A stretch of 64,000 bases of DNA, from assembly GCA_041653515.1 (NCBI GenBank), contig JBAZFG010000002.1, positions 125,632-189,631 of the forward strand, written 5' to 3'. This DNA comes from Candidatus Nanoarchaeia archaeon (lineage in GTDB: Archaea > Nanobdellota > Nanobdellia > WJKC01). Position numbers and translations under genes: made by a program. Under the pieces are notes generated by a model. That model was not told where the DNA came from, did not search any database, and worked only from the letters and a program-made list of their open reading frames with translations. Below are positions 7,288-64,000 of the stretch, piece after piece (within the stretch, counting starts at the first letter, position 1; each line of letters begins with the position of its first letter).

Positions 7288-8443
7288 TTACCTTTTTTGT
7301 GTTATAAATGTTTTCTTAACGTTGTTCAGCATGTCAGTTAACTGCAGCATTACTTTTTTGGTTGAGTATTGCTTTGCGTAAGCTTTTAGTCCTGGTCGCG
7401 GTCGCTCTTTTAGTAATTTGATTATTGCGTTAGCCCAATTAATTGCTTTATAAGGCTCGACTAACTCACCGTTTTCCTTGTTTACTAACTCGTTAAGCGG
7501 CCTGACGTTGCTGGCCAGCACTGGCTTGCCAAGAGCCCATGACTCAAGCAATACTAGTCCAAACCCTTCAACAGTGCTTGGGTTAACAACGAATTTTGAT
7601 TCACTGATTATCTTTAATTTATCAGCATGGCTGACCCTGCCAGTAAACGTAATACTGTTATTAACTCCGAGCCTGCGCGCGAGTGCCATTCACTGCTTCT
7701 TCATTGGACCATCACCAACTATTACGAACTTGGCTTTAGGGTCACGGCCGAGCACTGAAAGCATAGCCCTAATTATTGTGTTAACGTTCTTGTAGAAAAC
7801 GTGCCGGCCAATAAAACAAAACTGATTCTTGAGTCCGGCTCGCAGGTTTTTGTAATCAGCCAAGTCAATCATACAAGGCATGACTTTGATTGGCCTCCTA
7901 ATACCAGCCTTAATTAAATTATCCCTGCTGACACTGCTGATAGTGTGAATTAATGCTGGCCTGAATTTGAGGATGATTTTCTCAAGCAATGGACCCATAA
8001 TTCCGAGGCCTTTGCTGACACCTATCTGCCTGCTCCACTTACTTTAGAACGGGCCACTTGAGTAAAAATCAAAGATGCTCATCAAATGAGAGATTTTAAG
8101 AAAATAAGAAACTAAATGAGCACTGACTGCCGGCGTGTAAGTATTAGAGTGAATGACGTCGGAGTCCTTAGCAATTTTCAGGCCAGCCCTGAATGACTTA
8201 ATAATAAATGAAGCATTATTCAACAAGCTCATGTTAAGGTGGCCTTTGTAATCAATTGGCCTGTCAACCAGGTAAACTTGATGCTGTCAATCTTCTCAAA
8301 AGAAGTAGTGCCCCTTAATTGCTGGGTGATAACATTGACTTCATGCTGCGCTTAACTAACTCGCGCGCGTACTGAAAGAACAAGTACTCGCCACCCCCAT
8401 AGATTGCTGGCGGGTATAAGTGAATGAATTGAGTTATTTTCAT
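7288..8443 (-). pseudogene. Decayed duplicate of the GT4 glycosyltransferase gene at 10659-11789
   Basis: Collinear with the intact paralogue from ATG (8443) to stop (7288), roughly three quarters identical by eye in the C-terminal 95 aa. In-frame TAA at 8044-8046 and TGA at 7690-7692. At least two frameshifts between ~8260 and ~8350. The ORF track splits it into three pieces (7288-7689, 7690-7998, 8044-8232). Confidence 0.85.
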
Positions 8444-40177: not shown

Positions 40178-40339
40178 TGCCCCCGCAGTTTGGAATAAAC
40201 TTTTTTCAATAAGCAGGGGGATCAGGAAATGCCTAAAACTGAGGGGGATGTGCCCCCGCGGTTTGGAATAAACTTTTTTCAATAAGCAGGGGGATCAGGA
40301 AATGCCTAAAACTGAGGGGGATGTGCCCCCGCGGTTTGG
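40178..40339 (-). repeat. Tandem repeat, 73-bp unit x 2.2, each unit carrying one GC-hairpin element of the dispersed family
   Basis: Units start at 40178, 40251 and 40324 (tgcccccgc[a/g]gtttgg...) and are nearly identical. The array fills the aglB-to-GPT intergenic region, starting right after the aglB stop. Confidence 0.9.
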
Positions 40340-42958
40340 TTACCAGGCAGGACTGCCGTTATCAACCCATGGCATCATTGCAGTATAATTAATGTGATAA
40401 ATATTAATGTTGGTTGGGTCGTATTGTGATATTAATCCTCTTATGTTTAGTGAGTTACTTGAGTAGACTAATTCAAAACCAGGTATTGTTTCGTTCAATA
40501 AGTATAAGTGAGTCATGAAACGATCATTTAAGTCTGATGGGATGTGAATTAAGCCTCCTTCAATGAATTCAATACAAGAGTCAATGCCGTTAGTCTCATT
40601 AAAGTAAGTGCAGCCATTACCATAATCACAAACGCAATTGTATGGGTGAAGCGTGTTACTGCCCGTAGCTAAGTTATAAACTACTGCTTGTGGCTGACCA
40701 AAAGATTGGTCTTCAGCCATTGGTATTAAAACGTTTACTATGTAACTCTCGCCTTTAGGGAATAATACACCATCAATGATTGTGTCAGCGCCAACATAAC
40801 CTGGTGAGGCTAAGTAATTGAAAACTAGTAGTGTGCTGAATTGTTCAGGATTATACAAGTTATTATCCACTTGCTGGCTGTAAGTGTAAGGTGCGTAATA
40901 ACCTGGCCTGCCACCAATATTAGCCATCTGAACATATTTTAGTATATCATCATCCATGACTAATAAATAATTAGGCCTATTGCCTGTTTCATTATTCTTG
41001 AAGTAATCAAGTGAGTCATAAACCTCTGTCATGTTAAAGCCGCTAAACATTTGGCCGCCAATAACTTCATCCCATACTACTTGGAAGTTACCCCCATCAA
41101 CTGTTGTTGCCCGCTCGCCCATGGTTTGAACCCAGTAACCATAATCCCACCAATGAGTGAATACAGCGTTAGTGTCAGTGTTATTCCTAACCCAACTCAT
41201 TGATTCGCCCCAATCATTAGTGAAGCTTGGAATCATTGTTGAAGCATCTTCAACAATAACATAGTAACTCCATATTACTAATAGTATTGCGACTGCGTAA
41301 ATAGCTGTTGAGTAAACTTTATCACTTGTTATTTTGCTGATTAAATTATTTATCCGCTCAATAGCGTAAGCAGCTAATAACACGAATATTGGGGTGCTAG
41401 CAAAGACAATTCTTATTGCGCCCCTAGTTGCAATAACACTTAAAGCAAACCATAAGATGATTATTAGTTTACTTGGCGTTAACTCACCCCACTTACTGCT
41501 CTTATGGAATTTAATGTAAAATAATATTACTGTTAAAGCCAATAATGGCAGTGTTAGTAAGTAAGTGTTCTCAAAGAATAAATTAATTGCTTCATAACCG
41601 TTTAAGTTAACGAATTTGCTAAACATGAAGAATAAGATGAACACAGTAAACATTATCACTACTGATGTGGCTTTCTTGCCAAACTTACCTAATACTTCTT
41701 GAACTAATAATGCTCCACCAATAACAAATAATGGCACAAACCATTGAAGCCTATGCCACCAGTCAACCCCGTTAGGGTCATAGAACCATGGGGCTTGGTT
41801 TTCAGTAACTGAGACGCAGAAAGCACAAGTGCCAAAAGGGTTTAGTATTGTATCAAGAGCGCCTTGTAGTTTGGCGCCAACATCAAATAATCCAGTTAAT
41901 TGCATTACTGGCAGACCAACCATTATTAATACTGCCATCATTATTACGAAATAAAAATTATCAGGCCACTTCTTGTTCTTGATTAAGTTACTGATGAATA
42001 AATCATAAACAATTTTTAATCCAAGCACTAACGCTGTGATAGTTGGTATTAAGAACATATCAATCATGATTAAACCAAAACCATTATAGCGCAGGGTCAT
42101 TGTAGCGTTCATTAATATTATTGGGATGAACCACGCAAAGTAAGTGATTACGTTTTTATTGCTTAATTTACCCATTAAAGCAAGGAATAGGAATGCTAAG
42201 CCAATGCTGAAGAATAAGAAGTTAGCCCCACCCCAAGTCAGGCTTGATAAGCCAGCTAATACGCCTGATATTAACCCGTAAATTAATGCTTGTTTAGTCT
42301 TATTTGCCCTAATTGATTTGACTAATGCATAAATCATGCTAAACCAAAAGACTGTTGCAAGCGCTTCCTTATCACTAAACCCTGCCATGGTCCTGAATAA
42401 ATATGATGGGATTAATGATAAAAACGCTGTGGCAATTAACGCTGTTTTCTTGTTGAATATTTCTTTAGTCATTAAGAAAAAGAATATCATGCTTATTACA
42501 AACGCAACAACTGGGTAAATCATTGAATAACTCATTAGTTCGCCGCCAAATAATGGGTGAAATATTGTGTATAATCCTGCAACAAAGTAAGACACTAATT
42601 GGTGCTCCTTGAAAGTGCTAAAACCTTCTGGAAAATAACGAAATGAATCCATTTCAGGCAGGGTGCCCTGCTCCACTAGTGTTTCAGTGTAGCGGTAAAA
42701 AACATACGGGTCAAGACCAAGCAATAAACCATTGTATAATGGTATGCTTAGCATCCTAACCCAAGCCCCAACTAATATAATACTAATTAATGCTGCGTAT
42801 AATATTATCTTCTTATTTTCTTTGAGGAATTTTACTGCTTCGCCAAAATTAAGTTCATCCTCATCAGTGGTTGCTGGTTTTTTCTCTTTCTTATCACTGC
42901 TAAACCAGCCTTTAATCTTTCGCCCTATCTCCCCGAAATCAATTTCTTCATCACTCAA
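40340..42958 (-). CDS. aglB: Archaeal oligosaccharyltransferase AglB (STT3 family), long form
   Basis: Canonical HWWDYGYWVQ motif, first-loop GLDPYVFYRY, about 13 TM segments and a large C-terminal domain. Confidence 0.9.
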   Translation of the reverse strand: MSDEEIDFGEIGRKIKGWFSSDKKEKKPATTDEDELNFGEAVKFLKENKKIILYAALISIILVGAWVRMLSIPLYNGLLLGLDPYVFYRYTETLVEQGTLPEMDSFRYFPEGFSTFKEHQLVSYFVAGLYTIFHPLFGGELMSYSMIYPVVAFVISMIFFFLMTKEIFNKKTALIATAFLSLIPSYLFRTMAGFSDKEALATVFWFSMIYALVKSIRANKTKQALIYGLISGVLAGLSSLTWGGANFLFFSIGLAFLFLALMGKLSNKNVITYFAWFIPIILMNATMTLRYNGFGLIMIDMFLIPTITALVLGLKIVYDLFISNLIKNKKWPDNFYFVIMMAVLIMVGLPVMQLTGLFDVGAKLQGALDTILNPFGTCAFCVSVTENQAPWFYDPNGVDWWHRLQWFVPLFVIGGALLVQEVLGKFGKKATSVVIMFTVFILFFMFSKFVNLNGYEAINLFFENTYLLTLPLLALTVILFYIKFHKSSKWGELTPSKLIIILWFALSVIATRGAIRIVFASTPIFVLLAAYAIERINNLISKITSDKVYSTAIYAVAILLVIWSYYVIVEDASTMIPSFTNDWGESMSWVRNNTDTNAVFTHWWDYGYWVQTMGERATTVDGGNFQVVWDEVIGGQMFSGFNMTEVYDSLDYFKNNETGNRPNYLLVMDDDILKYVQMANIGGRPGYYAPYTYSQQVDNNLYNPEQFSTLLVFNYLASPGYVGADTIIDGVLFPKGESYIVNVLIPMAEDQSFGQPQAVVYNLATGSNTLHPYNCVCDYGNGCTYFNETNGIDSCIEFIEGGLIHIPSDLNDRFMTHLYLLNETIPGFELVYSSNSLNIRGLISQYDPTNINIYHINYTAMMPWVDNGSPAW

Positions 42959-42965
42959 TTTAACA

Positions 42966-43784
42966 TCATACTCCTAATGAAATGTAAACCTCTAATAATC
43001 CCCCGATTATTAATACAATGCTTGCAAGCACTATTAAATCAATGGAATCAAGTAATACCTCTTTAAATTTATTACTCTTAGGGTCATGCCTTATTACTGC
43101 TGCACTAATAATGCCTCCTGCAATGCCTGCGAGGAAGTAAGCAATTAATTCTGGCAGACCATGAACTAAGTAACGACCAAACCCTAGTGGCACTGCCTGA
43201 AAATAAGAAGACCAATTACTAATATTGGTTTTAATTGCGTTGCCAATAGCGACGCCGAGCACGCTTGAGTTCCACGTGATAATAAATATTGCGCCCGCCC
43301 CGTATAATAAGCTAAATATTAAGCAGAAGAGTAATACTTTGAAGTTATTGGCTAATATTATTTTTAATAAATCTGTTTGCACTGCATTGCCTTGAATGGC
43401 TGATGAGTTAATGCTTCTGATAGTGTTTATTTGCTCTGAGAATATTTTTGCGTTAAGGCTGTCAGGCATTATGACATACCATGTGGTGAATGTTATTAAT
43501 AATCCCATTGACATGAAGAATATTACGCCGAGCACATCTTTATGATTGCCAATTAAGGGGTATTGTTTTTTGGTGAAATCCTCTGATTCCTCTCGTTTTA
43601 GCACGTTAACTAGTAATGGCACGCCAGCCATTGTTGTAAGAAAAACCATACTTAATGACGGGTCTGATGGGAATAACCACATGCTGACTACTAAGCCAAG
43701 GCTCGCGTATATCACGCCTAATATTGTCATTTTCCAAGGCTTGGCTCTAACTTCTTTACTGCTTAATATTGACTCAAAAACCAT
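42966..43784 (-). CDS. Integral membrane protein, SpoIIM/DUF95-like
   Basis: Six or so TM segments. GLPELIAYFLAGIAGG resembles SpoIIM-family blocks. Assigned from memory only. Confidence 0.4.
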   Translation of the reverse strand: MVFESILSSKEVRAKPWKMTILGVIYASLGLVVSMWLFPSDPSLSMVFLTTMAGVPLLVNVLKREESEDFTKKQYPLIGNHKDVLGVIFFMSMGLLITFTTWYVIMPDSLNAKIFSEQINTIRSINSSAIQGNAVQTDLLKIILANNFKVLLFCLIFSLLYGAGAIFIITWNSSVLGVAIGNAIKTNISNWSSYFQAVPLGFGRYLVHGLPELIAYFLAGIAGGIISAAVIRHDPKSNKFKEVLLDSIDLIVLASIVLIIGGLLEVYISLGV

Positions 43785-44838
43785 TAATCACCTCTAATTT
43801 TCGGCTCCTGCCTTGGAATCCTTCGCCAGTATCAGTTGCTTTGATTAGTCCTTGTTTTCTTAATCGGTTAATGTAGCGCCTAAAACTCCTAATGCTTAAT
43901 TCGCCATGTATCTCGCGGTAATTCTTGTAAGCATCGCCGCTAATAATATTAGGGTTCTCTTTTATGATGTTAATTATTTTTTCTTCATGGTCGCTTAATT
44001 CCTGAGGTAAGTTAATAGTTATTGTCTTAATTGCTTCTTCAACGTGCTTGACTGTTATTTTCCTGCTAGCATCCCGCTCAGCCCTGCGTCCAGCTTCTAA
44101 TAATAAGTTGATTGCTTTCCTAACATCTGTGCCTGAATTAATACTTACTTCATGGACTACTCCTTCGCTTACAACACTTGGGTGGAACGCTTGTTTGGCC
44201 CTGCGTTCAATAATGTTTTTCATCTCGCGCGTAGTGTATGGCTTGAACTCCATGTTATTAAGGTTTAATCGCGACATTAATCGTGGTTCAATATAATTCT
44301 TGTACTTAGGGTTGTTAGTGACCATTAAGATGCATACCCGTTCTAAGTTTAGTAATGAGTATATTATGTCAAGGTCTTTTATTTTATCCACTTCATCAAG
44401 GCAGACTACTGCTCCTTTTTCCCTTAGTTTTCTCATCGCGTTATTAAGTATTTCTTCGGTCGGCACACCTTTAGGGGGATAGAGCATGCCTAATCGTCGC
44501 GCTATCTCTAAAGCTATTGTGTGAGTGGTCTGGCTTTCCCAGCAATTAATGAATACTGGTACAATATCGCTGGTCTCTTTTAATTCGTTAAAAATATATT
44601 TGATGCTCGCTGTCTTGCCAAGCCCAGGCATGCCGTGGATGAATACATTACTCCCTAAGCGATTTTGTAATAATGGTTTGATGAAACTAGCTATTTCTTT
44701 AATCTCATTGTCCCGTTCAGGCATTTCTTCTGGTTGGAATTTATAATCGAGAATAGTTTCATCCTTGAACAAAGTCTCGTTGTCCATCAGGATATCTTTG
44801 AATAAGCCCCCCATAATAGTAAGGGACACGCTAATCAT
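43774..44838 (-). CDS. cdc6: Orc1/Cdc6 replication initiator
   Basis: Walker A GMPGLGKT, Walker B VVCLDEVD and a C-terminal winged-helix region (RSFRRYINRLRKQGLI). Confidence 0.9.
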   Translation of the reverse strand: MISVSLTIMGGLFKDILMDNETLFKDETILDYKFQPEEMPERDNEIKEIASFIKPLLQNRLGSNVFIHGMPGLGKTASIKYIFNELKETSDIVPVFINCWESQTTHTIALEIARRLGMLYPPKGVPTEEILNNAMRKLREKGAVVCLDEVDKIKDLDIIYSLLNLERVCILMVTNNPKYKNYIEPRLMSRLNLNNMEFKPYTTREMKNIIERRAKQAFHPSVVSEGVVHEVSINSGTDVRKAINLLLEAGRRAERDASRKITVKHVEEAIKTITINLPQELSDHEEKIINIIKENPNIISGDAYKNYREIHGELSIRSFRRYINRLRKQGLIKATDTGEGFQGRSRKLEVINGF

Positions 44839-53556: not shown

Positions 53557-54126
53557 TTGATGAAAAAAGTTGCTTTGGTTGACTGGGGTAAGGGTGTTAC
53601 TGGTTTAGATGGGTTGCCTGCGTTCCTGGCTGATATTTTTCCAGTTAAAGCTTGCGATGACGTTCTTAAAGTCAGGCAATTATTAACAAAGCCTTTTAAT
53701 CACTGGCTTAAATCGCTTGACTCTAAGATTTGCCGTGAGTACAGCGACGTTATTGGTGTGGCGTTAATGCCTTACGTACCTAGCACAAAGGCGTTGTATG
53801 GCAATAATTTTGATAACGCTTCATTAATCCTTAATATTGCTGTTAATTCACATAATTATAATGGTTCGTTAATCTCAATTGACGTTAATACTATTGGGCC
53901 TGACCGCGCCAAAACGATTAGTATTCATGAGTTATTTGAGGTCTTTCATGGCCGGCATGAGACTCATGATGGCCGGGGCCAGCCTTGCGCTAATAATGGT
54001 GACTTGAGTAAATTAAGTTTTTGCTGCAGTCTTGAGAACACGCTTAATTATATTGATTCATTAAGCCCTTTCTTGTGCGGTCATTGTGATTATAAAGTTA
54101 AAAAGTCACGATTAATTGATTATTAA
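53557..54126 (+). CDS. Divergent archaemetzincin-like putative Zn protein (tentative)
   Basis: HELFEVFHGRHETH...C...CC...CGHC resembles the archaemetzincin HExxHxxGxxH + Cys4 layout, but the second His position is Glu. Confidence 0.3.
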   Translation: MMKKVALVDWGKGVTGLDGLPAFLADIFPVKACDDVLKVRQLLTKPFNHWLKSLDSKICREYSDVIGVALMPYVPSTKALYGNNFDNASLILNIAVNSHNYNGSLISIDVNTIGPDRAKTISIHELFEVFHGRHETHDGRGQPCANNGDLSKLSFCCSLENTLNYIDSLSPFLCGHCDYKVKKSRLIDY

Positions 54127-55597
54127 TCACTGCGTATAATTCTTTAGCATTATTATGTAATTGTTTTATTATTGCTGATACGTAATCAATACTGCTTATT
54201 ACTTCTTTTTTGTTTATTTCAAGTACTCGCATTTCCTCTGCGTTCCTGAAACCAAATCCCCTTCCTTCGCGGAATATTGGTGCAATGAATACTTCGTTTT
54301 CATTAAGGCCTGGGAGTACTTTGTTTGTTATTCCAATTGTTGTTCCAAGGTATTTTCTTGCAAATTCTTCGTTAATTAATACTGATGTTGTTTGATTAAT
54401 TCTCTCGCTTATTTCATTTAGGCTTTTGTTTCTAAGAACCATTTCACTTTTGAATTTTTGAGGCAGGCCAATCACAAAAGTACCTTTTGTTGCGATTGGT
54501 ATTTTTTCAATTCCAGTGCATTTATTATTCTTGAAAAATAGTCGTAGTAATCCCTTGCTGCTATTGAATGCAAGGACGTTTTTATCTGACCTTTTTTTTA
54601 TGTAATTGGGTTTACTGCTTAAGTAATCCTTGAATAATTCATTTATTTTTTTATCTGTCATTGGGTAAAAATTTATTCTTTCATATTCATCCGGATTAAT
54701 GCCACTTTCATTAATAGTTATTCTTTTATAATCACTTATGATTATTTTTTTTGCTTTCATTATTTCTTTGATGAATTCTACTTTCAATAAGTTCTCATCT
54801 AATTTGTTTGTGTAAGCTTCAAGCCATGCCGGCCTGAAGTCAATACTTAATGGTTTGCTGTCAGTGACTTGTATTACTATGTCCTGGCTTTTGTAATTGA
54901 ACATGAACAAGTTTTTCCATTCGCGCCAGCCAGTCTTGATTAGTAATTCGCTGATAGATTGGCCTGGGCTGAGTTCGTAAGAATAAGGGTTTATTCGCCT
55001 GACTGTTGCTGGTTTAGTGGTTGATTCTGTCATCACTGTTTTAGTTTCTTGTTTTGGCAGTTTCTGCGGGTATAATCCTACTTGCGCTACTGCCGCGCCC
55101 GCTTCATTATCCTGGTTTAATAATTTGTTAAGCACTAATTTTAGGAAACCATAAGCTTTTGTTTCTGTTATTTTTTCTTTGAATAATTGTTTCACTTCAT
55201 TGTTAATGCCTGTTTTCTTGAATGTGTTTTTTAATTCATTAATAAGTGTTTTTGAGTAATGCTCAAACATGAATTCATTGTAGTATTTGCTGAAGAAAAT
55301 ATTATCCTGGTTTAAGTCCTTAAGTGAGTTAATTGCTTTTAGTGTTTTGAAGTCATTGGTGTTAAAAATCTTCTTGCGTCTCATTGAGTGAAGTATTTTT
55401 TCTTCAACAATTTTTTGCTTAGCAGGGTTCATAACAGTGTTGGCTATCCTGATAAGCCATTTGAATAAGTTGTAATTAATTGAGTTGTTTGAAAGGTTTT
55501 TTAATTGCTCGGCTGACGCATTAATGATGGTGATTAATTCTTCATTACTTAAATTAAGACTGCTCTTCCTGCTGTTAAACCTGAAGTTAACTATCAT
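54098..55597 (-). CDS. Hypothetical protein (499 aa, AT-rich)
   Basis: Long intact ORF. No recognisable domain. Confidence 0.5.
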   Translation of the reverse strand: MIVNFRFNSRKSSLNLSNEELITIINASAEQLKNLSNNSINYNLFKWLIRIANTVMNPAKQKIVEEKILHSMRRKKIFNTNDFKTLKAINSLKDLNQDNIFFSKYYNEFMFEHYSKTLINELKNTFKKTGINNEVKQLFKEKITETKAYGFLKLVLNKLLNQDNEAGAAVAQVGLYPQKLPKQETKTVMTESTTKPATVRRINPYSYELSPGQSISELLIKTGWREWKNLFMFNYKSQDIVIQVTDSKPLSIDFRPAWLEAYTNKLDENLLKVEFIKEIMKAKKIIISDYKRITINESGINPDEYERINFYPMTDKKINELFKDYLSSKPNYIKKRSDKNVLAFNSSKGLLRLFFKNNKCTGIEKIPIATKGTFVIGLPQKFKSEMVLRNKSLNEISERINQTTSVLINEEFARKYLGTTIGITNKVLPGLNENEVFIAPIFREGRGFGFRNAEEMRVLEINKKEVISSIDYVSAIIKQLHNNAKELYAVINNQLIVTF

Positions 55598-57336: not shown

Positions 57337-57488
57337 TTAGAAATCACTGAGTTTTTTCTGCTTAGTCCCTAACCGCAGGGAGGGGTGACCCCTCCCTTCA
57401 GTTTTAGGGTAATCCTGATTCCCACCCCCCTACGATTGTAATTATGCCAGAGACATGTTAGAAATCACTGAGTTTTTTCTGCTTAGTC
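57337..57488 (+). repeat. GC-hairpin element copy A (57368-57457), bracketed by 31-bp direct repeats (57337-57367 and 57458-57488)
   Basis: ttagaaatcactgagttttttctgcttagtc occurs twice, identically. The right copy is the last 31 nt (stop codon included) of nucS. The core aaccgcagggaggggtgacccctcccttcagttttagggtaatcctgattccc lies at 57371-57423. Confidence 0.85.
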
Positions 57489-58210
57489 TTATCAACTATG
57501 TTCCTGTTTGGTGGTTCTACTTGGCAGAACTTAAAGCTCCAGTCATGGAGCATTTGTTCAGCGTTCTTAGTGATGCCTGGCGCTGCGATGTAACCAATGA
57601 CTTTGTCAATTCCTTTAGCTGCCTTGATTCTCTCAACGTAGCGCCTTAGTTGTTGGACCGCGCTAAGCCCGGCAGTCACTCGCTTACACTCAATAATTAT
57701 TAATGCTCCTTCACCATCATGGCCCATCACGTCAATAAAACCATATTTTGTTTGTTCTTCAAGGCTGACTGGCCTAAAGTCAATGCTAATAATATGTGGG
57801 TGCTCATAAATCATGCGCGCCATGTCAGCTTCACTGCCCATAATCATTACTTCTTCATCATCGCTTAGTTGGCCTGAGATTAGTAAGTCAATGCTGGTTA
57901 TTTTAATGACCATTTGTTCTCTTGGGTTGATTGATTCAGCAGTGATGAATAATGAGTCGCCAGCTTCAACCCTGATGCTCGCGCCTTCTTTTATCCAGTT
58001 AACTGGGTTCCTGCCTGTTGGTTTGTGAACTAATAGTGTTTTGTCTGTTTTGATGGTGACTGCCCTGCCGCCCCGCTCGAGCTTTGAGTAAGCCCTGCCT
58101 TCATACTTAACCTCGCACTCGCAGTAAAGTGTGATTAACTCGTTTCGCTTGAGTGCTTGGTCTAATACGTTCTTGGTTGTATCAAAATCAGGTTTAACAT
58201 AATTGCTCAT
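57458..58210 (-). CDS. nucS: NucS/EndoMS mismatch-specific endonuclease
   Basis: C-terminal RecB-like nuclease block IDVMGHDGEGALIIIECKR...AVQQLRRYV; 250 aa. Confidence 0.85.
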   Translation of the reverse strand: MSNYVKPDFDTTKNVLDQALKRNELITLYCECEVKYEGRAYSKLERGGRAVTIKTDKTLLVHKPTGRNPVNWIKEGASIRVEAGDSLFITAESINPREQMVIKITSIDLLISGQLSDDEEVMIMGSEADMARMIYEHPHIISIDFRPVSLEEQTKYGFIDVMGHDGEGALIIIECKRVTAGLSAVQQLRRYVERIKAAKGIDKVIGYIAAPGITKNAEQMLHDWSFKFCQVEPPNRNIVDKTKQKKLSDF

Positions 58211-58647: not shown

Positions 58648-61456
58648 GTATTCCTGGTTTGCATGGCATTGCTTTCGGGTTATCTGCTTTGACTACATCA
58701 ACTTCTGTGTTATACTCTTGTTCAAGGAATTTGATTGCTTCGTTTAGTGATTGGTACTCACCATTCCTGTCTGGCGCGCTTAATGGCACGCGGCTTGGGT
58801 TCCTGATTAATGACTGGATGATGCCTGTCGCGTCCTTGGCGTGAGCTTTGACTGAAGCGTTCTTTAAGGCATTAGTAATTAATTCTTTTAAGTCATGCTT
58901 GTTCTTTGACTTAACCACTGATTTGTATAAGTCATACTTCCATTGGTCAGCGATGAATAATGTTATCTTTTTTGGTTTTGTTTTTATTATGCTTAATAAA
59001 CCATTAATGTCCTTGATTGTGTTCATTATTATTGATTCGTTCTGCTCAATTGATTGGTTAATCATTGATTCATTGATTTTTGGGAATCGGGCTAGTGAGA
59101 CAAACCCTTTGTTAATTTTGCTCCAAGCCTCCTCGCAGATGTGGGGTATTAATGGCTCGAGTGCTATCAGCCAGTCAGCTAGGAAAGTCCTGATTACACT
59201 ATTAAATTGTTGCGCGCTCACTCTTTTCTTGTAGTAGTTAAGCTCGTTCATGAACTCAAAGAAAATGTTAATTGCGTAAGGCCTAATCATGATATTACAT
59301 CCCTGCTCGTAAGCTTCTTTTATTCTTGAGTAAAAACGGCTGGTAATCCACTTGTCGATGCTGGTTAATTTCTTGGCTGGCAGCGCTTTACTTGCTGTCA
59401 GCACTAGATTAGCAAAATTAGTTATTTTTGTTTTGACGCTGGCAACCTCGTTCTCGCGCCAGTCAACTACTGAGTCAATGTCGCTTGAGCTTAATAAGAA
59501 CATTCTTAGTAAGTCAGCGCTGTACTTTTCAGCTACTTCAGCTAATGGTATAACGTTGCCTTTGCTCTTACTCATCTTAACCCCTTCGCGGATGACCATT
59601 TCGTTGAAACTTATTTCTTTTGGCCAGTACTTTTTGGGGAATATCTTGGTGTGGTGGAATAAGAAGAATGTTAGGTGGTTGCTGATGTGTGCTGGCGCAG
59701 TGTGGCGGTGGTCAAGTGGGTACCAATAAGTGAAATCTTCACGCATCTCACGCGCCCATTTAACTTTAAACTCACCTTTACCTAGGAATACATAATCAAA
59801 TAATTCAGGGGTTAATTGTTCTGGTTTTATTTTCTCGCGGTGAATAATGTTAATGATTGTGTAAAATGCCATGTAAATCGTTGAGTCGCTTAAGCTTTCA
59901 ATAACCCACTTGTCATCATAAGGCAGTTTTGTGCCTAAGCCTCTTTTGCGCGCGCAAGGTCTTTTCTCAAGCCAGTCAACCGTGTCAATGAATGACTTGC
60001 GGTACTTGTCAGGTATTATTGTCATATCATTAATTAATCTTCTAGTCTTGTCTTTCCATTCTTTGCTTGTGTAATCAAGGAACCATTGATCGTTAAGCAC
60101 TGCCACTATTACCTTGCCAGTGCAACGGCACTCAGCTTTGCGGCTGGTCTCGTAGAATGTGAAAGCGTCGCCTTGGCTTATTAGTTTGTTCCTGACACGG
60201 TCTTTAATTTCATTTATCTTGAGTCCTTTGAATTCAGCGCACTTTTCATTAAGCACTCCTTTGTAGAATTCATCTTTGTAAACCCTCTTGGTTGCTTGTT
60301 CTATTAGTTCCTTGTTGCGTTGGTTTTTAACGCCTAATTTGTTAATCATTTCAACTGCAGGTTCATTGCTGTAACCCTCAATGTTAATGATTGTTATTGG
60401 CTTAATTGACTTGATTTCCTTACTGTCAAGCCCGTAATCAGTTATGCCCTTGCTATCATTTTGCAAGTCTCTTAATGCTGCGTAATCAAACGGTGCGTGG
60501 GCTGGCACTGAGTAAACAATGCCTGTGGCCACGTCTGGGTCAACGAACTGACCTGGAAGTATTGGTACTTCAGTTCCTAATGGGGTGGTGACGTGTTTGC
60601 CTATTAGCTCTGTGCCAGCTAGTTCCCTTGTTTTCTTTAATCCTGTTTGCTGGTATTTTAATTTGTTGAATGCTTCAACGCTTATGATTAAGTTATTATT
60701 AGTCTCAACGTACAATGATTCAGGGTTAACCCATAAGTTAGTAATGCCATAAATTGTTTCAGGCCTTAGTGTACCTGCTACTAATTGTTTGCTGCCTAAA
60801 TCGAATTTGATTGCAGTGAACTCATTAATGCTTACTTTATCAGCGTCACCATCCTTAATATCATCCTCGCCAACAGCGTTGTCACAGTTAACACAGAAAT
60901 TAATTGGGTAACTACCCTGGGTTAATGCTTTGCCTTGTTTTAGTTTTTTAAACTGCCATTCAATAAATTTATTGTACTCTTTGTCGCCAGTGGTGAATTG
61001 TCTTGTCCAATCAACGCTGACCCCAATACTCTCAAAGTCTTGTCTGATAACGCTGGCGAAGTGCTTGGCAACGTTCATTGGTTCCTTGAATGACTCAATT
61101 ATCTTCTTGACTTTACTTTCATCTTTTTCTCTTAAGCGGACGTAATTAGTGAATAACTCGATGTAATTCTTATCACCTTTCCTTATGCGGTCGCTGATAG
61201 CTAATATTGGCGTGCCTGAGATGTGATAAGCCATGGGCCATAAGACATTATAACCTTGCTTTCGCTTGAAGCGCGCAATGAAGTCGCCGATACTGTAAGT
61301 CCTGCCGTGGCCAATATGGTAAGGGCCACTGGTATATGGGTATGGTACTGTGAAGAAATACTTCTTGCCTGTTTTTTTGGGCTCAAAGATTTTATCCTTA
61401 ACCCATTGCTTCTGCCACTTACGCTCTATTTTAGATAAATCCATCTTGTTAATCAC
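58637..61456 (-). CDS. leuS: Leucyl-tRNA synthetase (archaeal type)
   Basis: HIGH motif PYHIGHGRTY, KMSKSKGN, and a CP1 editing-domain insertion. The likely start is the ATG at 61444 (MDLSKIERKWQ). Confidence 0.95.
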   Translation of the reverse strand: MINKMDLSKIERKWQKQWVKDKIFEPKKTGKKYFFTVPYPYTSGPYHIGHGRTYSIGDFIARFKRKQGYNVLWPMAYHISGTPILAISDRIRKGDKNYIELFTNYVRLREKDESKVKKIIESFKEPMNVAKHFASVIRQDFESIGVSVDWTRQFTTGDKEYNKFIEWQFKKLKQGKALTQGSYPINFCVNCDNAVGEDDIKDGDADKVSINEFTAIKFDLGSKQLVAGTLRPETIYGITNLWVNPESLYVETNNNLIISVEAFNKLKYQQTGLKKTRELAGTELIGKHVTTPLGTEVPILPGQFVDPDVATGIVYSVPAHAPFDYAALRDLQNDSKGITDYGLDSKEIKSIKPITIINIEGYSNEPAVEMINKLGVKNQRNKELIEQATKRVYKDEFYKGVLNEKCAEFKGLKINEIKDRVRNKLISQGDAFTFYETSRKAECRCTGKVIVAVLNDQWFLDYTSKEWKDKTRRLINDMTIIPDKYRKSFIDTVDWLEKRPCARKRGLGTKLPYDDKWVIESLSDSTIYMAFYTIINIIHREKIKPEQLTPELFDYVFLGKGEFKVKWAREMREDFTYWYPLDHRHTAPAHISNHLTFFLFHHTKIFPKKYWPKEISFNEMVIREGVKMSKSKGNVIPLAEVAEKYSADLLRMFLLSSSDIDSVVDWRENEVASVKTKITNFANLVLTASKALPAKKLTSIDKWITSRFYSRIKEAYEQGCNIMIRPYAINIFFEFMNELNYYKKRVSAQQFNSVIRTFLADWLIALEPLIPHICEEAWSKINKGFVSLARFPKINESMINQSIEQNESIIMNTIKDINGLLSIIKTKPKKITLFIADQWKYDLYKSVVKSKNKHDLKELITNALKNASVKAHAKDATGIIQSLIRNPSRVPLSAPDRNGEYQSLNEAIKFLEQEYNTEVDVVKADNPKAMPCKPGILIE

Positions 61457-61545
61457 TTATTAACTCCTCTTTTTTTAACGTTGCGTAATTATTATCGCAT
61501 TATTTTTTTAAGATTTTTCCCAAGAAGACTTTAAATAATCCTAAT

Positions 61546-62748
61546 GTGTGTTCATTATTCATGCGCAATAATCTTAATAATTTCTTTGTTGAGCGCGTGA
61601 AGCACTTTAAGCACATGGCTTCATTATCCAATACTTTTTTCTTTTACTTGTTCGCCTGGGGTCTAGTCACGCCAATATTTAATATTCATATTAATGAAGT
61701 GACTAATTCACTTTTCTTGTCCGGCATTATCTTTTCTGTGTTTGGTTTTGCTAGAATATTTTTTGACCCGTCAATCGGTTTGTTATGCGACCGCGTTAAC
61801 CCTAAGAGATTATTGCAGGGTAGTCTATTGTCTTATACATTAATATTTTTCTTATACACGATTGCTAATAATTTTTATTTATTATTAATCGTGCGAGTAT
61901 TGCACGCAATTGCTTGTGCCATGCTCTGGATTTCTGGTTGGACTTTAGTTAGATTAAAGAGTAAAGGTAATTCTGCTCAGGAAGAGATTAGTGTTTGGTA
62001 CTCAGTTCAGTACATTGCTTATGTTATTGCTCCTTTAATTGGTGGCTCGTTGATAACAATGTTTTCGTGGCAACCTGTTTATTACTTAGCGTCAATAACT
62101 GCTTTTATTGCTTTTGTTTACGCTTCAATTAATGTTAAGAGTGTTCATACAAGTAATAATAGTAAGAAGCGGTTTAGGGATTTATGGCACCAGTTCTTCA
62201 TAAATAAATCATCATCAATTAGGCTAGTATTATTAACATTCCTTGAAATATTAATCGTGATTGGTTTCTATGAGTTCATGCCATTATTATTAGATCAGGC
62301 TGGGCTTAATATTGAGGAGATTAGCGTTGTGTTTGCTTTGGCTTATACTACCCCATTTATTTTATTCCCAGTAATTATTGGAGTTATTAGTGATAAGTAT
62401 GGTCGCAAAATACCAACTGCTATTGGTTTGATAATCATTAGCTTTGGGTTATTATTGTTCTGCAACGCCAGTACTTTTACTCAATTCCTGTTTTATACTT
62501 TCATTATTGTTACTGGTGATGCGTTTGTTAACTTAAGTTTTAACGCAGAGCTTAATGATATGACACCAAAAAACAGTGCTGGTGGTTTTACTGGTATTTT
62601 TGAGATGATTAAGGATTTGGCTGTGGCCATCGGCCCGTTGTTAGTTGGTGTTTTAAGTGCTGTAACTAATATTTCATTTGCTTTTATAATAATGAGTGTG
62701 ATGTCATTAGGCACTATATTAGTGCTTAAAGGGTTTAAGAATTTCTAA
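61546..62748 (+). CDS. MFS transporter
   Basis: Twelve TM segments. Motif A-like GLLCDRVNPKR and GVISDKYGRK in the two halves. The likely start is the ATG at 61561. Confidence 0.8.
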   Translation: MCSLFMRNNLNNFFVERVKHFKHMASLSNTFFFYLFAWGLVTPIFNIHINEVTNSLFLSGIIFSVFGFARIFFDPSIGLLCDRVNPKRLLQGSLLSYTLIFFLYTIANNFYLLLIVRVLHAIACAMLWISGWTLVRLKSKGNSAQEEISVWYSVQYIAYVIAPLIGGSLITMFSWQPVYYLASITAFIAFVYASINVKSVHTSNNSKKRFRDLWHQFFINKSSSIRLVLLTFLEILIVIGFYEFMPLLLDQAGLNIEEISVVFALAYTTPFILFPVIIGVISDKYGRKIPTAIGLIIISFGLLLFCNASTFTQFLFYTFIIVTGDAFVNLSFNAELNDMTPKNSAGGFTGIFEMIKDLAVAIGPLLVGVLSAVTNISFAFIIMSVMSLGTILVLKGFKNF

Positions 62749-62791
62749 AAGCAAGCCTTAAAAAGTAATTAATTCTTTTCTAAATATTAGT

Positions 62792-62935
62792 GGGCCCGTA
62801 GCGCAGTTTGGATAGCGCGACAGGCTTCTACACTCGACGCTTCGCGTCTCGTTCCGTCCTTCGGACGGCCGCTCGCTTAAAACGAGCGGGGGTGAGGATA
62901 CCTGTAGGTCGTGGGTTCAAATCCCTCCGGGCTCG
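62792..62935 (+). tRNA. tRNA-Arg (anticodon UCU) with a 69-nt intron at the canonical 37/38 position
   Basis: Acceptor GGGCCCG/CGGGCTC, D arm GCGC-agtttggata-GCGC, anticodon stem ACAGG/CCTGT with loop ct-TCT-a, T arm GTGGG-ttcaaat-CCCTC. Exon 1 is 62792-62830, the intron 62831-62899 and exon 2 62900-62935. No encoded CCA. Confidence 0.85.
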
Positions 62936-63077
62936 CACGAAAACCGCAGGGAGGGGAGACCCCTCCCTTCAGTTCATCTCCTGATTCCCACCTCCTTGAC
63001 AATTTGCGCCAGGGGTGCTGAAATATTAATCTGCACGAAGTTTTGGATGATTAGTCCAATTTACTCCGGGCTCACAC
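62925..63077 (+). repeat. GC-hairpin element copy B, bracketed by the tRNA 3' end and a 13/14-nt copy of it
   Basis: ctccgggctcgcac (62925-62938) is repeated as ctccgggctcacac (63064-63077). The core aaccgcagggaggggagacccctcccttcagttcatctcctgattccc lies at 62942-62989. Confidence 0.8.
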
Positions 63078-63179
63078 TCAAACTCGGCTACGCCTCGTTT
63101 TCGTTCTGTTTCGCTAGAAGGCTTGTTGTTTTTTAGAGCTACAAACTTATAATTATTAATTGCATTGTTTTTTAACTGG

Positions 63180-64000
63180 ATGAAAGTTGTTGAGCAGTTT
63201 CTTGGTAGTAAGAAAGGTGACTTATCTGTTTGTGAGGATAATTTAATATTATCTAATCGTTATATTGGCGTTGTTGATGGTGGGACTGATAAGTCTGGGC
63301 TTGATTGGGGTGGTCAGCTTGGCGGTAAATTATTATCTGATTTAGTGAAGCGCGTTTTTGAGACTAATGACTTGCCTGTTGATAAGATTGAAGCTTTAAT
63401 TAGAACTGAGTTCGGGCGCTTGGCTCGTGGGTTTGGCATTGATTTGGGCAATAAGTTTAACTTACCTGATGCTGCGTTGGTTGTTTATGATAGTGTTAAG
63501 CAGTTGGTTTATTATGTTGGTGATTGCAAGCTGCGTTTTGTTTATGATGATGGTTCATTAAGCGAGCAATTAATCCCTGAGTTAAAGATTGATTTGATTA
63601 ATGCTTCCTTGCGCAAAGCAGTTATTGACTCATTTAAGCAGTTAGGCTTTGACCCGTTTAAGGGTGGTTTTGATTATGGTCGCGAGTTCATTAAGCCATT
63701 ATTATTAAAGCAGTCATTGCTAGCTAACTCTAAGCAGGTTGGTGAGTGGTTTATGGGTATTCCTTACGAGTTAGTTAAGTTTAGTATTATCAATGGTGTT
63801 GATAAGATAGTTTTTAATGAGTTAAGAGTGCCTAAGAATGTTAGTCAGTTAATAATGGGTTCTGATGGTTTTATTGAATTGAAGCGGACGTTAAAGCAGA
63901 GTCTTAATCATTTGAAAAAGACAATAAGTATTGACCCTCATCGGTGCGGCAAGTACCCGTCAACCAAAGGGGTTAGTCAGGGGATGGCTTATCCTGATGA
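63180..64000 (+). CDS. 5'-partial view of an ORF running off the window end; weak PP2C/SpoIIE-like hints
   Basis: Open frame from ATG 63180 to the window end (273 codons, translated by hand). GVVDGGTDKSG and LIMGSDGF resemble PP2C-type metal-binding blocks. Absent from the ORF track because it has no stop. Confidence 0.5.
   Translation, partial: MKVVEQFLGSKKGDLSVCEDNLILSNRYIGVVDGGTDKSGLDWGGQLGGKLLSDLVKRVFETNDLPVDKIEALIRTEFGRLARGFGIDLGNKFNLPDAALVVYDSVKQLVYYVGDCKLRFVYDDGSLSEQLIPELKIDLINASLRKAVIDSFKQLGFDPFKGGFDYGREFIKPLLLKQSLLANSKQVGEWFMGIPYELVKFSIINGVDKIVFNELRVPKNVSQLIMGSDGFIELKRTLKQSLNHLKKTISIDPHRCGKYPSTKGVSQGMAYPD

What the first reader, a model, noticed from the sequence alone, without database searches (positions are those of the whole stretch)
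62925..63077. tRNA-Arg 3' end repeated 139 bp downstream, enclosing another copy of the hairpin element
The last 14 nt of the T-arm/acceptor region plus trailer (ctccgggctcgcac, 62925-62938) recur as ctccgggctcacac at 63064-63077, matching at 13 of 14 positions. The enclosed 125 nt begin with copy B of the element, 6 nt after the tRNA discriminator base. A tRNA 3'-end direct repeat is the standard att-site signature of archaeal integrative elements. Again the enclosed DNA is tiny and non-coding. Together with the nucS locus, this suggests one mechanism acting at different targets, with repeat lengths of 31 and 14 nt. Those unequal lengths are not what a fixed-length transposase target-site duplication would give.
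Basis: partly seen in the sequence, partly recalled or inferred. Interest (0 to 1): 0.65.

Follow-up and report, generated by a model that had tools for sequence, protein, structure and literature searches.

The report
Small mobile element beside tRNA-Arg
The repeat of the tRNA-Arg 3' end is real and flanks one copy of a roughly 60-base, non-coding, hairpin-bearing element that has inserted next to gene and tRNA ends in at least six archaeal lineages, duplicating 14-33 bases of its target each time by a mechanism not yet known.

Summary
tRNA-Arg(TCT) lies at 62792-62935 and has a 69-nt intron. Its last 11 nt plus 3 trailer nt (62925-62938) recur at 63064-63077 with 13 of 14 matches, far above chance.

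The enclosed 125 nt is a diverged copy of the nucS-locus element. At nucS, a relative with 90% identical NucS has the empty site, so that copy is a true insertion with a 31-nt target duplication.

The core consensus is CCAAACCGCAGGGGG-loop-CCCCCTTCAGTTTTAGG-N5-CCTGATTCCCCC. It occurs in Micrarchaeota, Iainarchaeum, Aenigmatarchaeota, Altiarchaeota, a Methanobacteriota MAG and this Nanoarchaeia MAG. Its stem covaries and it matches no Rfam family.

In 6 of 18 loci an exact or near-exact direct repeat of 14-33 nt ends precisely at the CCAAACC end; the other end of the insert varies. Five loci touch tRNA genes. There are no terminal inverted repeats and no recurrent integrase, transposase, RT or Cas1 gene nearby.

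I read this as an undescribed non-autonomous mobile element. The SSV/pNOB8 integrase att reading is not supported as stated. The mechanism is inferred, and no empty site was found for the tRNA locus.

The parts
62792..62935 (+). tRNA-Arg(TCT) gene. Exon 1 is 62792-62830, the intron about 62831-62899, exon 2 62900-62935. The T-stem has a T50/T64 mismatch and the discriminator base is G.
   Evidence: Rfam RF00005, 49.7 bits, 71-nt insertion in the anticodon loop. Sequence read. ARAGORN reports nothing.
62925..62938 (+). Proximal copy of the direct repeat: tRNA positions 63-73 plus the trailer CAC. It ends exactly where the element begins.
62939..63000 (+). Element copy B, conserved core: P1 hairpin GGGAGGGG/CCCCTCCC, then TCAG...CTGA, then a C-rich tail. 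It lacks the TTTAGG block of the consensus.
   Evidence: Covariance model R1, 53.5 bits, E 9e-12. Alignment A1.
63001..63063 (+). Element copy B, variable part. It is weakly similar to copy A for about 27 nt and then unique. Its last 10 nt (GTCCAATTTA) loosely resemble the tRNA T-loop region (GTTCAAATCC).
   Evidence: (D6: 30 nt at 77%).
63064..63077 (+). Distal copy of the direct repeat. It has A where the tRNA has G73; relatives L003 and L005 have A73.
57337..57367 (+). Copy A, displaced copy of the 31-nt repeat (reverse complement of the last 31 nt of nucS, including the stop codon).
57368..57457 (+). Element copy A, 90 nt; the core is 57368-57434. It is absent from the orthologous site of L002.
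   Evidence: R1 74.1 bits. Empty site.
57458..57488 (+). Copy A, the 31-nt repeat copy that forms the working 3' end of nucS (nucS is 57458-58210 on the minus strand). The repeat stops exactly at the stop codon.
40178..40339 (-). Element copy C: two full 73-nt tandem units plus a 16-nt partial third unit. It starts directly after the stop codon of the STT3-like gene (40340-42958, minus strand). Its P1 stem is GGGGG/CCCCC.
   Evidence: R1 66.5 bits for each unit.

Best explanation
Copy B is one insertion of a small, non-coding, non-autonomous mobile element that landed at the 3' edge of tRNA-Arg(TCT). The 14-mer pair is the duplicated target: the tRNA's last 11 nt plus 3 trailer nt. The tRNA is therefore left whole and an orphan copy sits 125 nt downstream.

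Shown:
- The element family exists, with three loci in this window and about 20 copies in other archaea.
- It has a conserved, covarying hairpin core.
- At nucS the element plus a second 31-nt target copy is absent from a close relative.
- In 6 of 18 loci a significant direct repeat ends exactly at the CCAAACC end of the core, while the other end of the insert varies (60-165 nt).

Inferred mechanism (my estimate about 0.3): the element is copied in trans through a single-stranded intermediate whose constant end is the CCAAACC end, which is the 3' end ...GCGGUUUGG on the opposite strand.
- A target 3'-OH is joined or primed at that end.
- Copying runs towards the variable end.
- The second junction is made 14-38 nt away on the other strand, so that stretch is filled in twice.
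This is target-primed copying of the kind that gives LINE/SINE insertions one constant end, one ragged end and duplications of variable length. The enzyme has not been identified.

The descriptive part (mobile-element insertion with target duplication) I hold at about 0.85. The overall figure given is a blend of the two.
For: - Repeat significance and exact abutment to the element start.
- Same element at nucS with a perfect 31-nt repeat.
- Empty nucS site in L002, where L002 positions 1633-1663 align to both window copies.
- Third locus at 40178-40339.
- 15 further loci in six archaeal lineages from one 24-base pattern.
- P1 covariation, with 4 pairs changed on both sides, 99.3% of cells paired and 0 of 500 shuffles reaching the score.
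- Model search finds 22 copies in 252 kb and none in 84 kb from the window's relatives.
- Repeats of 31, 14, 24, 31, 33 and 20 nt each end 0 nt from the core.
- Five loci touch tRNA genes. Those outside the window are L023, L024, L016 and L019.
- No terminal inverted repeats in the sequences.
- No shared neighbouring protein family.
- B is contiguous in a second assembly.
Against: - No empty site is available for the tRNA-Arg locus. Relatives L003 and L005 lack the element after tRNA-Arg, but their downstream DNA is not homologous.
- The B repeat is short, 10 nt exact and 13 of 14 overall.
- 10 of 18 loci show no flanking repeat.
- No reverse transcriptase, Cas1, transposase or integrase was found in the window.
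- There is no A-rich tail.
- In L021 and L013 the repeat copies differ only by synonymous or stop-to-stop changes, and similarity ends at the stop codon. That fits imported, once-functional gene ends better than a filled-in duplication decaying neutrally.
- The strand of any intermediate is unknown.
Confidence: 0.55

Rival explanations
1. Att-like integration. The element exists as a small circle or fragment that carries its own copy of the target's end next to the core. It integrates by site-specific or homologous recombination within that stretch. The host gene or tRNA end is replaced by the element-borne copy and the resident copy is displaced.
For: - In the L021 array all three repeat copies plus 7 further nt encode ...TKADLLKFVHR*, with 5 differences that are all synonymous or stop-to-stop.
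- In L013 both copies encode ...AIDKWAKG*, as GGG TAA versus GGT TGA.
- The nucS repeat stops exactly at the stop codon.
- In B, the distal copy has A at the discriminator position, like relatives L003 and L005, while the working tRNA has G. This fits a replaced 3' end.
- In L023 the sequence beyond the exact repeat is similar but diverged, as for two different tRNA trailers.
- One locus, L019, has a tyrosine-recombinase gene 45 nt beyond the same tRNA.
Against: - The same core is joined to unrelated repeat sequences at every locus, so each move to a new target would need a new captured segment. No known integrase system does this.
- The two nucS copies are identical at 31 of 31 positions while the 90% relative differs at 6 of 31. 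That second copy therefore arose in this lineage.
- No integrase is present in the window or next to 19 of 20 copies examined.
- Circles of 75-170 bp are very small for double-stranded DNA.
Confidence: 0.2
2. A non-autonomous derivative of an IS200/IS605-type single-strand transposon (PATE/REP-like), moved by a Y1 HUH transposase supplied in trans. The flanking repeat would arise secondarily, for example by replication realignment at the insertion.
For: - There are no terminal inverted repeats.
- A subterminal GC hairpin keeps its pairing while its sequence changes.
- The element's end lies 9 nt from the hairpin foot in all copies.
- Some subfamilies carry a second hairpin, GTGGGG...CCCCAC, near the other end (L013, L014, L018, L021).
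- In 4 of 7 repeat-bearing loci the base triplet before the variable end is TAA or TGA. This could be a short target motif.
- Orientation is biased relative to neighbouring genes.
Against: - IS200/IS605 elements make no target duplication (established knowledge of the family), whereas 6-7 loci here have repeats of 14-33 nt.
- No TnpA or TnpB gene lies in the window or beside any copy.
- The far end is not conserved between genomes.
Confidence: 0.12
3. No dedicated mobility. The GC-rich hairpin, with a possible triplex, stalls replication. Nascent strands switch template, copy the element from another locus, and return upstream, giving templated insertions flanked by duplications of arbitrary length.
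For: - One end is precise at a fixed distance from a very stable hairpin, the other end is ragged, and duplication length varies.
- Tandem arrays occur, such as 40178-40339 with 2.2 units.
- No enzyme gene was found.
Against: - It does not explain near-identical 50-60 nt cores in six distant archaeal lineages.
- It does not explain sequence conservation of the unpaired parts (TCAGTTTTAGG, CCTGAT).
Confidence: 0.1
4. Cas1/casposase-type integration of a miniature element.
For: Casposons insert at tRNA 3' ends and at the 3'-distal parts of genes, and have duplications of 1-27 nt with a median of 15 (PMC4046053). The B repeat is 14 nt and lies at a tRNA 3' end.
Against: - Casposons have terminal inverted repeats and none are present here.
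- The duplications of 31 and 14 nt in one genome are too unequal for a ruler-type enzyme.
- No Cas1 or PolB gene is in the window.
Confidence: 0.05
5. Chance similarity or assembly artefact.
For: The exact run in B is only 10 nt. The nucS and L021 repeats are both exactly 31 nt, a common k-mer size.
Against: - Shuffle tests.
- Six independent loci in different assemblies show the same geometry.
- B is identical in a second assembly.
- The Logan contig for nucS breaks one base before the end of the 31-mer, as expected if the repeat is present in the reads.
Confidence: 0.03

Closest known systems
Integrative elements with tyrosine integrases at tRNA 3' ends (SSV-type, pNOB8-type)
   Same: There is a direct repeat of the tRNA 3' end on both sides of the inserted DNA, and the tRNA stays intact. 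Gene 3' ends are also used as targets.
   Different: The insert is 60-165 nt and non-coding. No integrase was found. The repeat sequence differs at every locus for the same core, and repeat length ranges from 14 to 33 nt.
MITEs and other non-autonomous IS derivatives of archaea
   Same: Small, non-coding, multi-copy, intergenic, and dependent on functions supplied in trans.
   Different: There are no terminal inverted repeats. Only one end is conserved. The flanking repeats are long and variable rather than short and fixed.
LINE-mobilised SINEs and processed pseudogenes (target-primed reverse transcription)
   Same: One constant end, one ragged end, target duplications of variable length, a structured conserved terminal module, and tandem or nested copies.
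   Different: There is no A-rich tail. No reverse transcriptase has been identified, and no such retroposon is known in archaea. The strand and nature of the intermediate are untested.
Casposons (Cas1-solo transposons)
   Same: Targets at tRNA 3' ends and at the 3'-distal parts of genes, with duplications around 14-15 nt (range 1-27; PMC4046053).
   Different: Casposons are 8-20 kb elements with terminal inverted repeats, Cas1 and PolB genes. None of these features is present here.
IS200/IS605 family and its PATE/REP-like derivatives
   Same: No inverted terminal repeats, and a subterminal hairpin at a fixed short distance from the end. The hairpin's structure is conserved rather than its sequence.
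   Different: That family makes no target duplication. No TnpA or TnpB gene was seen.
IS1634/IS1549-type insertion sequences
   Same: Unusually long and variable direct repeats at insertion sites (from my own knowledge; not checked here).
   Different: Those are bacterial protein-coding insertion sequences with inverted repeats.

Membership tests
Tyrosine-integrase integrative element (SSV/pNOB8 type) | Integrase gene within the element or at its edge | tested here: not met
   The insert is 125 nt. Pfam, NCBIfam and PHROGs scans of about 55 window ORFs find no integrase. Only 1 of 20 neighbours of other copies, in L019, is a Phage_integrase protein.
Tyrosine-integrase integrative element (SSV/pNOB8 type) | Direct repeat equals the att core and overlaps the 3' end of a tRNA or gene | tested here: met
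   62925-62938 and 63064-63077 overlap tRNA positions 63-73. The nucS repeat covers the last 31 nt of that gene.
Tyrosine-integrase integrative element (SSV/pNOB8 type) | One element type uses one att sequence | tested here: not met
   Seven unrelated repeat sequences flank the same core.
MITE / non-autonomous DDE transposon | Terminal inverted repeats | tested here: not met
   The ends of A, B, L025, L021 and L013 were compared by eye and by the inverted-repeat search. No terminal inverted repeats were found.
MITE / non-autonomous DDE transposon | Short target duplication of fixed length | tested here: not met
   Repeat lengths are 14, 20, 24, 31, 31 and 33 nt.
Casposon | Cas1 and PolB genes and terminal inverted repeats | tested here: not met
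   The element is non-coding, there is no Cas1 or PolB gene in the window, and there are no terminal inverted repeats.
Casposon | Duplication of about 14-15 nt at a tRNA or gene 3' end | tested here: inconclusive
   B is 14 nt at a tRNA 3' end, but A is 31 nt in the same genome. The family range of 1-27 nt comes from PMC4046053.
Retroposon moved by target-primed reverse transcription | Variable-length target duplication with one constant and one variable end | tested here: met
   Repeats abut the CCAAACC end at 0 nt in 6 loci, and insert length ranges from 60 to 165 nt.
Retroposon moved by target-primed reverse transcription | Reverse transcriptase source and RNA intermediate | not testable with these tools
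   No RT gene is in the window.
IS200/IS605-derived element (PATE/REP-like) | Insertion without target duplication | tested here: not met
   A shows duplication against an empty site, and six loci have repeats. However, 10 loci have none.
Any described RNA family (Rfam 15) | Match to a curated covariance model | tested here: not met
   Only tRNA hits were found. Nothing on the element reached E < 1 in the window or in 7 other loci.
CRISPR array | Identical repeats separating unrelated spacers, with cas genes or a leader | tested here: not met
   The repeats are pieces of the local gene or tRNA, and the 'spacers' are the conserved element. No cas genes were found.

The most novel reading that the evidence does not exclude
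The element may be a previously unrecognised class of archaeal mobile DNA: a roughly 60-nt structured scaffold with no protein-coding capacity that spreads between phyla. It would insert either by target-primed copying, making it the first SINE-like retroposon in archaea. Or it would carry, directly abutting its scaffold, a 14-38-nt copy of its target that directs integration by homology. In that second case it would be a guide-bearing, self-retargeting integrative element that repairs the gene end it interrupts.
Probability: 0.25. Interest if true: 0.9.

Novelty: new variant of a known kind. Interest (0 to 1): 0.72.

Why it matters
- DPANN and related archaea have tiny genomes, and few of their mobile elements have been characterised.
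- This is a sequence-defined, structure-bearing element shared by at least six lineages. It keeps host genes and tRNAs intact by duplicating their ends.
- It provides a searchable marker of horizontal exchange between these archaea, some of which live as symbiont and host.
- It explains orphan tRNA-end and gene-end fragments that annotation pipelines misread.
- It poses a concrete mechanistic question: which host or helper enzyme makes a precise junction at CCAAACC and a 14-33-nt duplication?
- If the intermediate is RNA, or the repeat acts as a targeting segment, this would be a new mode of mobility in archaea.

Tried and rejected
**Searches that found nothing**
- The exact hairpin pattern CCGCAGGGAGGGGNNNCCCCTCCCTTCAG gave 0 hits in the viral, genome and metagenome collections, so the window's own genome is not in those sets.
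- Looser patterns in viral contigs gave 0 hits.
- BLAST of the core against phage and plasmid records found no match.
- Rfam at permissive thresholds found only tRNAs.
- Literature searches for the sequence blocks, for DPANN MITEs and for mobile sRNA genes found nothing describing this element.

**Attempts to find an empty site for tRNA-Arg**
- The tRNA 3'-exon pattern in metagenomes hit only the contig already held as L003.
- MFS-transporter homologues gave either the same genome (L006) or a contig ending 14 nt after the gene (L007).
- Homologues of the downstream ORF lie in a different genomic context. The tRNA-Arg trailer is therefore a synteny breakpoint.

**Readings considered and dropped**
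- C/D-box or H/ACA sRNA: there is no C box or ACA in register.
- HDV-like or hammerhead ribozyme: the core motifs do not fit.
- Origin recognition box near the cdc6 gene at 43774-44838: the sequence does not match.
- Integron attC: the R boxes are not conserved.
- DGR TR/VR pair: the repeat is too short, has no A-specific mismatches and no RT.
- Recombinase core site: the arms covary instead of being conserved, and the loop holds 3 to about 90 nt.

**Left unresolved**
- Whole-element folding energies are not better than shuffles apart from the hairpin.
- I could not decide between a triplex and an alternative helix for the C-rich tail.

Full report
**1. The observation**

The window is AT-rich (37% GC). 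It comes from a DPANN archaeon; the identical MFS protein is named "MAG: Candidatus Nanoarchaeia archaeon".

Rfam places a tRNA at 62792-62935 on the plus strand, with 49.7 bits and a 71-nt insertion in the anticodon loop. Read directly, it is tRNA-Arg(TCT) with an intron at about 62831-62899. ARAGORN does not see it.

The 14-mer CTCCGGGCTCGCAC (62925-62938) covers tRNA positions 63-73 plus three trailer bases. It recurs as CTCCGGGCTCACAC at 63064-63077. These are the only two matches with up to 2 mismatches in the window, against 0.11 expected. With gaps disallowed, similarity extends weakly leftwards, to 30 nt at 77% (D6).

A Logan assembly of run SRR18595300 (L006) is 100% identical to window 60571-63434. 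The arrangement therefore does not depend on one assembler.

**2. The enclosed DNA is a copy of a repeated element**

The stretch 62942-62974 is 97% identical to 57371-57403, and a second block, CCTGATTCCCACC, is shared further on.

At the nucS locus the element (57368-57457, 90 nt) lies between two perfect 31-nt repeats, 57337-57367 and 57458-57488. The second repeat is the last 31 nt of nucS including its stop codon; nucS is on the minus strand.

It starts directly after the stop codon of an STT3-like gene and holds two 73-nt tandem units plus a 16-nt partial third. Its hairpin stem is GGGGG/CCCCC instead of GGGAGGGG/CCCCTCCC, while the flanking blocks AACCGC, TCAGTTTTAGG and CCTGAT are kept.

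**3. Empty-site test at nucS**

The closest NucS homologue, P0001 (90% identity, JGI 3300021603), lies on contig L002. There the stop codon is followed directly by aaatttaaaaag..., which is the sequence that follows the second repeat copy in the window.

BLAST aligns L002 1633-1663 to both window repeats and finds nothing for the 90 nt between them. Copy A is therefore an insertion accompanied by duplication of 31 nt of target.

The two window copies are identical at 31 of 31 positions, while L002 differs at 6 of 31. The second copy thus arose in this lineage.

The Logan contig carrying the identical nucS (L001) stops one base short of the end of the 31-mer. A k=31 unitig would break there if the 31-mer occurs twice in the reads.

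**4. The tRNA-Arg locus in relatives**

Contigs with about 75% identical NucS (L003/L004 and L005) keep the MFS / class-I tRNA synthetase / nucS order. They carry tRNA-Arg(TCT) next to the MFS gene.

In both, the tRNA ends ...CGGGCTCA and is followed by AT-rich DNA without the element. The downstream gene differs, however, so these are not precise empty sites.

Other routes failed:
- The tRNA 3'-exon pattern found only L003's contig in the metagenome set.
- The closest MFS contig ends 14 nt after the gene.
- Homologues of the downstream ORF sit in another genomic context.

The insertion status of B therefore rests on analogy with A and with the family, not on an empty site.

One detail fits a replaced or duplicated 3' end. 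The orphan copy has A at the discriminator position, as in both relatives, whereas the working tRNA has G.

**5. The family outside the window**

A pattern built from copies A and C, CCCYTCAGTTTTAGGNNNNNCCTGATYCCC (24 specified bases), hit 15 loci among one-genome-per-species archaeal and bacterial genomes. All 15 are archaeal:
- four Micrarchaeota genomes
- two Iainarchaeum
- one Aenigmatarchaeota
- two Altiarchaeota (one of them the IMC4 SM1 genome, with two hits)
- a Methanobacteriota MAG, with two hits
- one unclassified archaeon

The consensus is CCAAACCGCAGGGGG-[loop]-CCCCCTTCAGTTTTAGG-N5-CCTGATTCCCCC.

The hairpin P1 covaries, for example GGGAACC/GGTTCCC, GGGGGG/CCCCCC and GGGAGAAC/GTTCTCCC. 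Four of its seven pairs change on both sides, 99.3% of cells are paired, and no shuffle reaches the covariation score. Its loop holds 3 to about 90 nt.

A second small helix, UCAG/CUGA, is invariant.

A covariance model (R1) finds 22 copies in 252 kb. These include copy B (53.5 bits) and extra copies in L021 and L026. None occur in 84 kb from the window's relatives (L002, L003, L005, L008, L009).

There is no Rfam match and nothing in viral, phage or plasmid collections.

**6. Flanking repeats are a family trait**

For each locus I aligned the 40 nt left of the CCAAACC end to the 260 nt downstream of the core. Loci with a significant repeat (0 of 300 shuffles) ending exactly at the element's first base:

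| Locus | Repeat length (nt) | Insert length (nt) | Note |
|---|---|---|---|
| A (window) | 31 | 90 | |
| B (window) | 14 | 125 | one mismatch |
| L013 | 24 | 165 | |
| L021 | 31 | 129 | |
| L023 | 33 | 116 | one indel |
| L025 | 20 | 60 | |

L015 has a 30-nt imperfect repeat 7 nt away from the element. Ten loci show no flanking repeat.

The CCAAACC end is therefore sharply defined, and the other end is not. The shortest insert, in L025, is just the core. There are no terminal inverted repeats.

**7. Where it lands**

Five loci touch tRNA genes:
- B lies after the tRNA 3' end on the same strand.
- In L024 the element starts right after a genome-encoded CCA, on the same strand.
- In L023 the repeat is the tRNA 3' end and the element is in the opposite orientation.
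- In L016 two copies make up the roughly 190-nt canonical intron of a tRNA-Arg(CCT).
- In L019 the element abuts base 1 of a tRNA.

Other copies sit at the very ends of housekeeping genes, including EF-2, two aminoacyl-tRNA synthetases, ribosomal proteins L30 and L15, and Trm5.

Tandem or nested arrays occur in copy C, L016, L021 and L013.

**8. The repeats do not always behave as plain filled-in duplications**

In L021 the array is repeat-E1-E2-repeat-E3-repeat. All three repeat copies, with 7 further nt, encode the C-terminus ...TKADLLKFVHR* of the adjacent HTH-CBS gene. Their five differences are all synonymous or stop-to-stop: GCG/GCT, TAA/TAG, CAT/CAC, AGA/AGG and TAG/TAA.

In L013 both copies encode ...AIDKWAKG*, as GGG TAA versus GGT TGA. 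At nucS the repeat stops exactly at the stop codon.

An orphan copy decaying neutrally should collect mostly non-synonymous changes. Seven of seven silent changes has a rough probability of 0.23^7. This is my own estimate, and the changes are not fully independent.

Either copies were imported from other lineages by recombination, or they alternate as the working gene end. This keeps an att-like model alive.

**9. No enzyme in sight**

Pfam scans of 49 window ORFs, with NCBIfam and PHROGs on the unassigned ones near the loci, show a protein-glycosylation cluster and housekeeping genes. They show no integrase, transposase, reverse transcriptase, Cas1 or Y1 transposase.

Neighbours of the other copies share no protein family. 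All but one are housekeeping or unassigned genes; the exception is a tyrosine recombinase just beyond the tRNA in L019.

**10. Mechanism**

Three things are shown: insertion with duplication at nucS, a precise junction at one end, and repeats of variable length.

The mechanism is inferred. One constant end, one ragged end and duplications of 14-33 nt are what target-primed copying produces in LINE/SINE systems. I take a target-primed, single-strand-intermediate mechanism as the best single guess, at about 0.3.

The rivals are:
- an att-like element carrying its own target copy (0.2), favoured by section 8
- an IS200/IS605-like hairpin-end element with secondary duplication (0.12)
- structure-induced template switching (0.1)
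- Cas1-type integration (0.05), for which casposon duplications of 1-27 nt and tRNA targets come from PMC4046053
- chance or artefact (0.03)

**11. Comparison and novelty**

The element shares single features with tRNA-targeting integrative elements, MITEs, casposons, SINEs and IS200/IS605 derivatives. It fails at least one defining feature of each (see the membership table).

I found no description of it in Rfam or in the searchable literature. Absence from those sources is not proof of novelty.

I file it as a new variant of a known kind, namely small non-autonomous mobile elements. There is a real chance, about 0.25, that the mechanism is new for archaea.

**12. Caveats**

- Only 64 kb of the host genome was available.
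- The collection scans needed exact pattern matches, so the family's true spread is underestimated.
- The taxon labels are those of the deposited MAGs.
- B lacks an empty site, and its exact repeat run is only 10 nt.
- The strand of the functional form is unknown. The strand opposite to the one I drew is co-directional with neighbouring genes in 11 loci against 3, by my own count.

Noticed in passing
It holds two 73-nt tandem units plus a 16-nt partial third and starts right after the stop codon of the STT3-like gene. Its stem GGGGG/CCCCC is compensatory relative to copies A and B.
   Followed up: yes
window 62831-62899: The tRNA-Arg(TCT) intron is unusually long (69 nt) and made of three GC-rich hairpins. 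ARAGORN therefore reports no tRNA in the whole window. The T-stem has a T50/T64 mismatch that relatives lack.
   Followed up: partly
all element copies (alignment A1, columns 10-16, 24-30, 53-59): The C-run after CCTGAT always has the same length as the G-run of the hairpin. Interruptions of the purine run are mirrored in it, and columns 10, 30 and 53 change together. This points to an alternative helix or an intramolecular triplex, which I could not tell apart.
   Followed up: partly
L016 4457-4740: A Micrarchaeota tRNA-Arg(CCT) has a canonical intron of about 190 nt that consists of two copies of the element. It appears to have a second intron in the T-loop.
   Followed up: partly
L003 2480-2640 (minus strand): The orthologous tRNA-Arg(TCT) of a relative has two introns, one in the D-loop and one at the canonical site. 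Rfam misses it at the gathering threshold. L005 has the same tRNA without any intron.
   Followed up: no
L020 4885-5017 and L027 5621-5753: Two copies in one Micrarchaeota genome share a roughly 70-nt palindromic insertion (TCACATCGAGTAGCAAA...TTTGCTACTCAATGTGA) inside the hairpin's 3' strand. A composite element has therefore been copied to two loci.
   Followed up: no
L019 1439-2644: A tyrosine-recombinase (Phage_integrase) gene starts about 45 nt after the 3' end of the tRNA whose 5' end abuts the element. This is probably a separate integrated element, but it is the only recombinase seen near any copy.
   Followed up: no
window 62936-63180 compared with L003, L005, L008 and L009: Gene order breaks exactly after tRNA-Arg. 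Relatives have Nre or a small membrane ORF there, whereas the window has an unassigned 282-aa ORF whose homologues lie elsewhere in other genomes.
   Followed up: partly
window 53557-55597: Two ORFs, 189 aa on the plus strand and 499 aa on the minus strand, have no Pfam, NCBIfam or PHROG match. They are absent from the syntenic stretch of L005, between the amidohydrolase and the class-Ib tRNA synthetase.
   Followed up: no
window 7288-7998 (minus strand): A group-1 glycosyltransferase is split by an in-frame TGA at 7690-7692 that is immediately followed by ATG. It could be a pseudogene, a recoding site or a sequencing error.
   Followed up: no
window 57337-57367 / 57458-57488 and L021 614-644 / 774-804: Both perfect repeats are exactly 31 nt, the k-mer size of some assemblers. 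Each has a natural boundary, the stop codon in one case and the first synonymous mismatch in the other, so I treat this as coincidence.
   Followed up: partly
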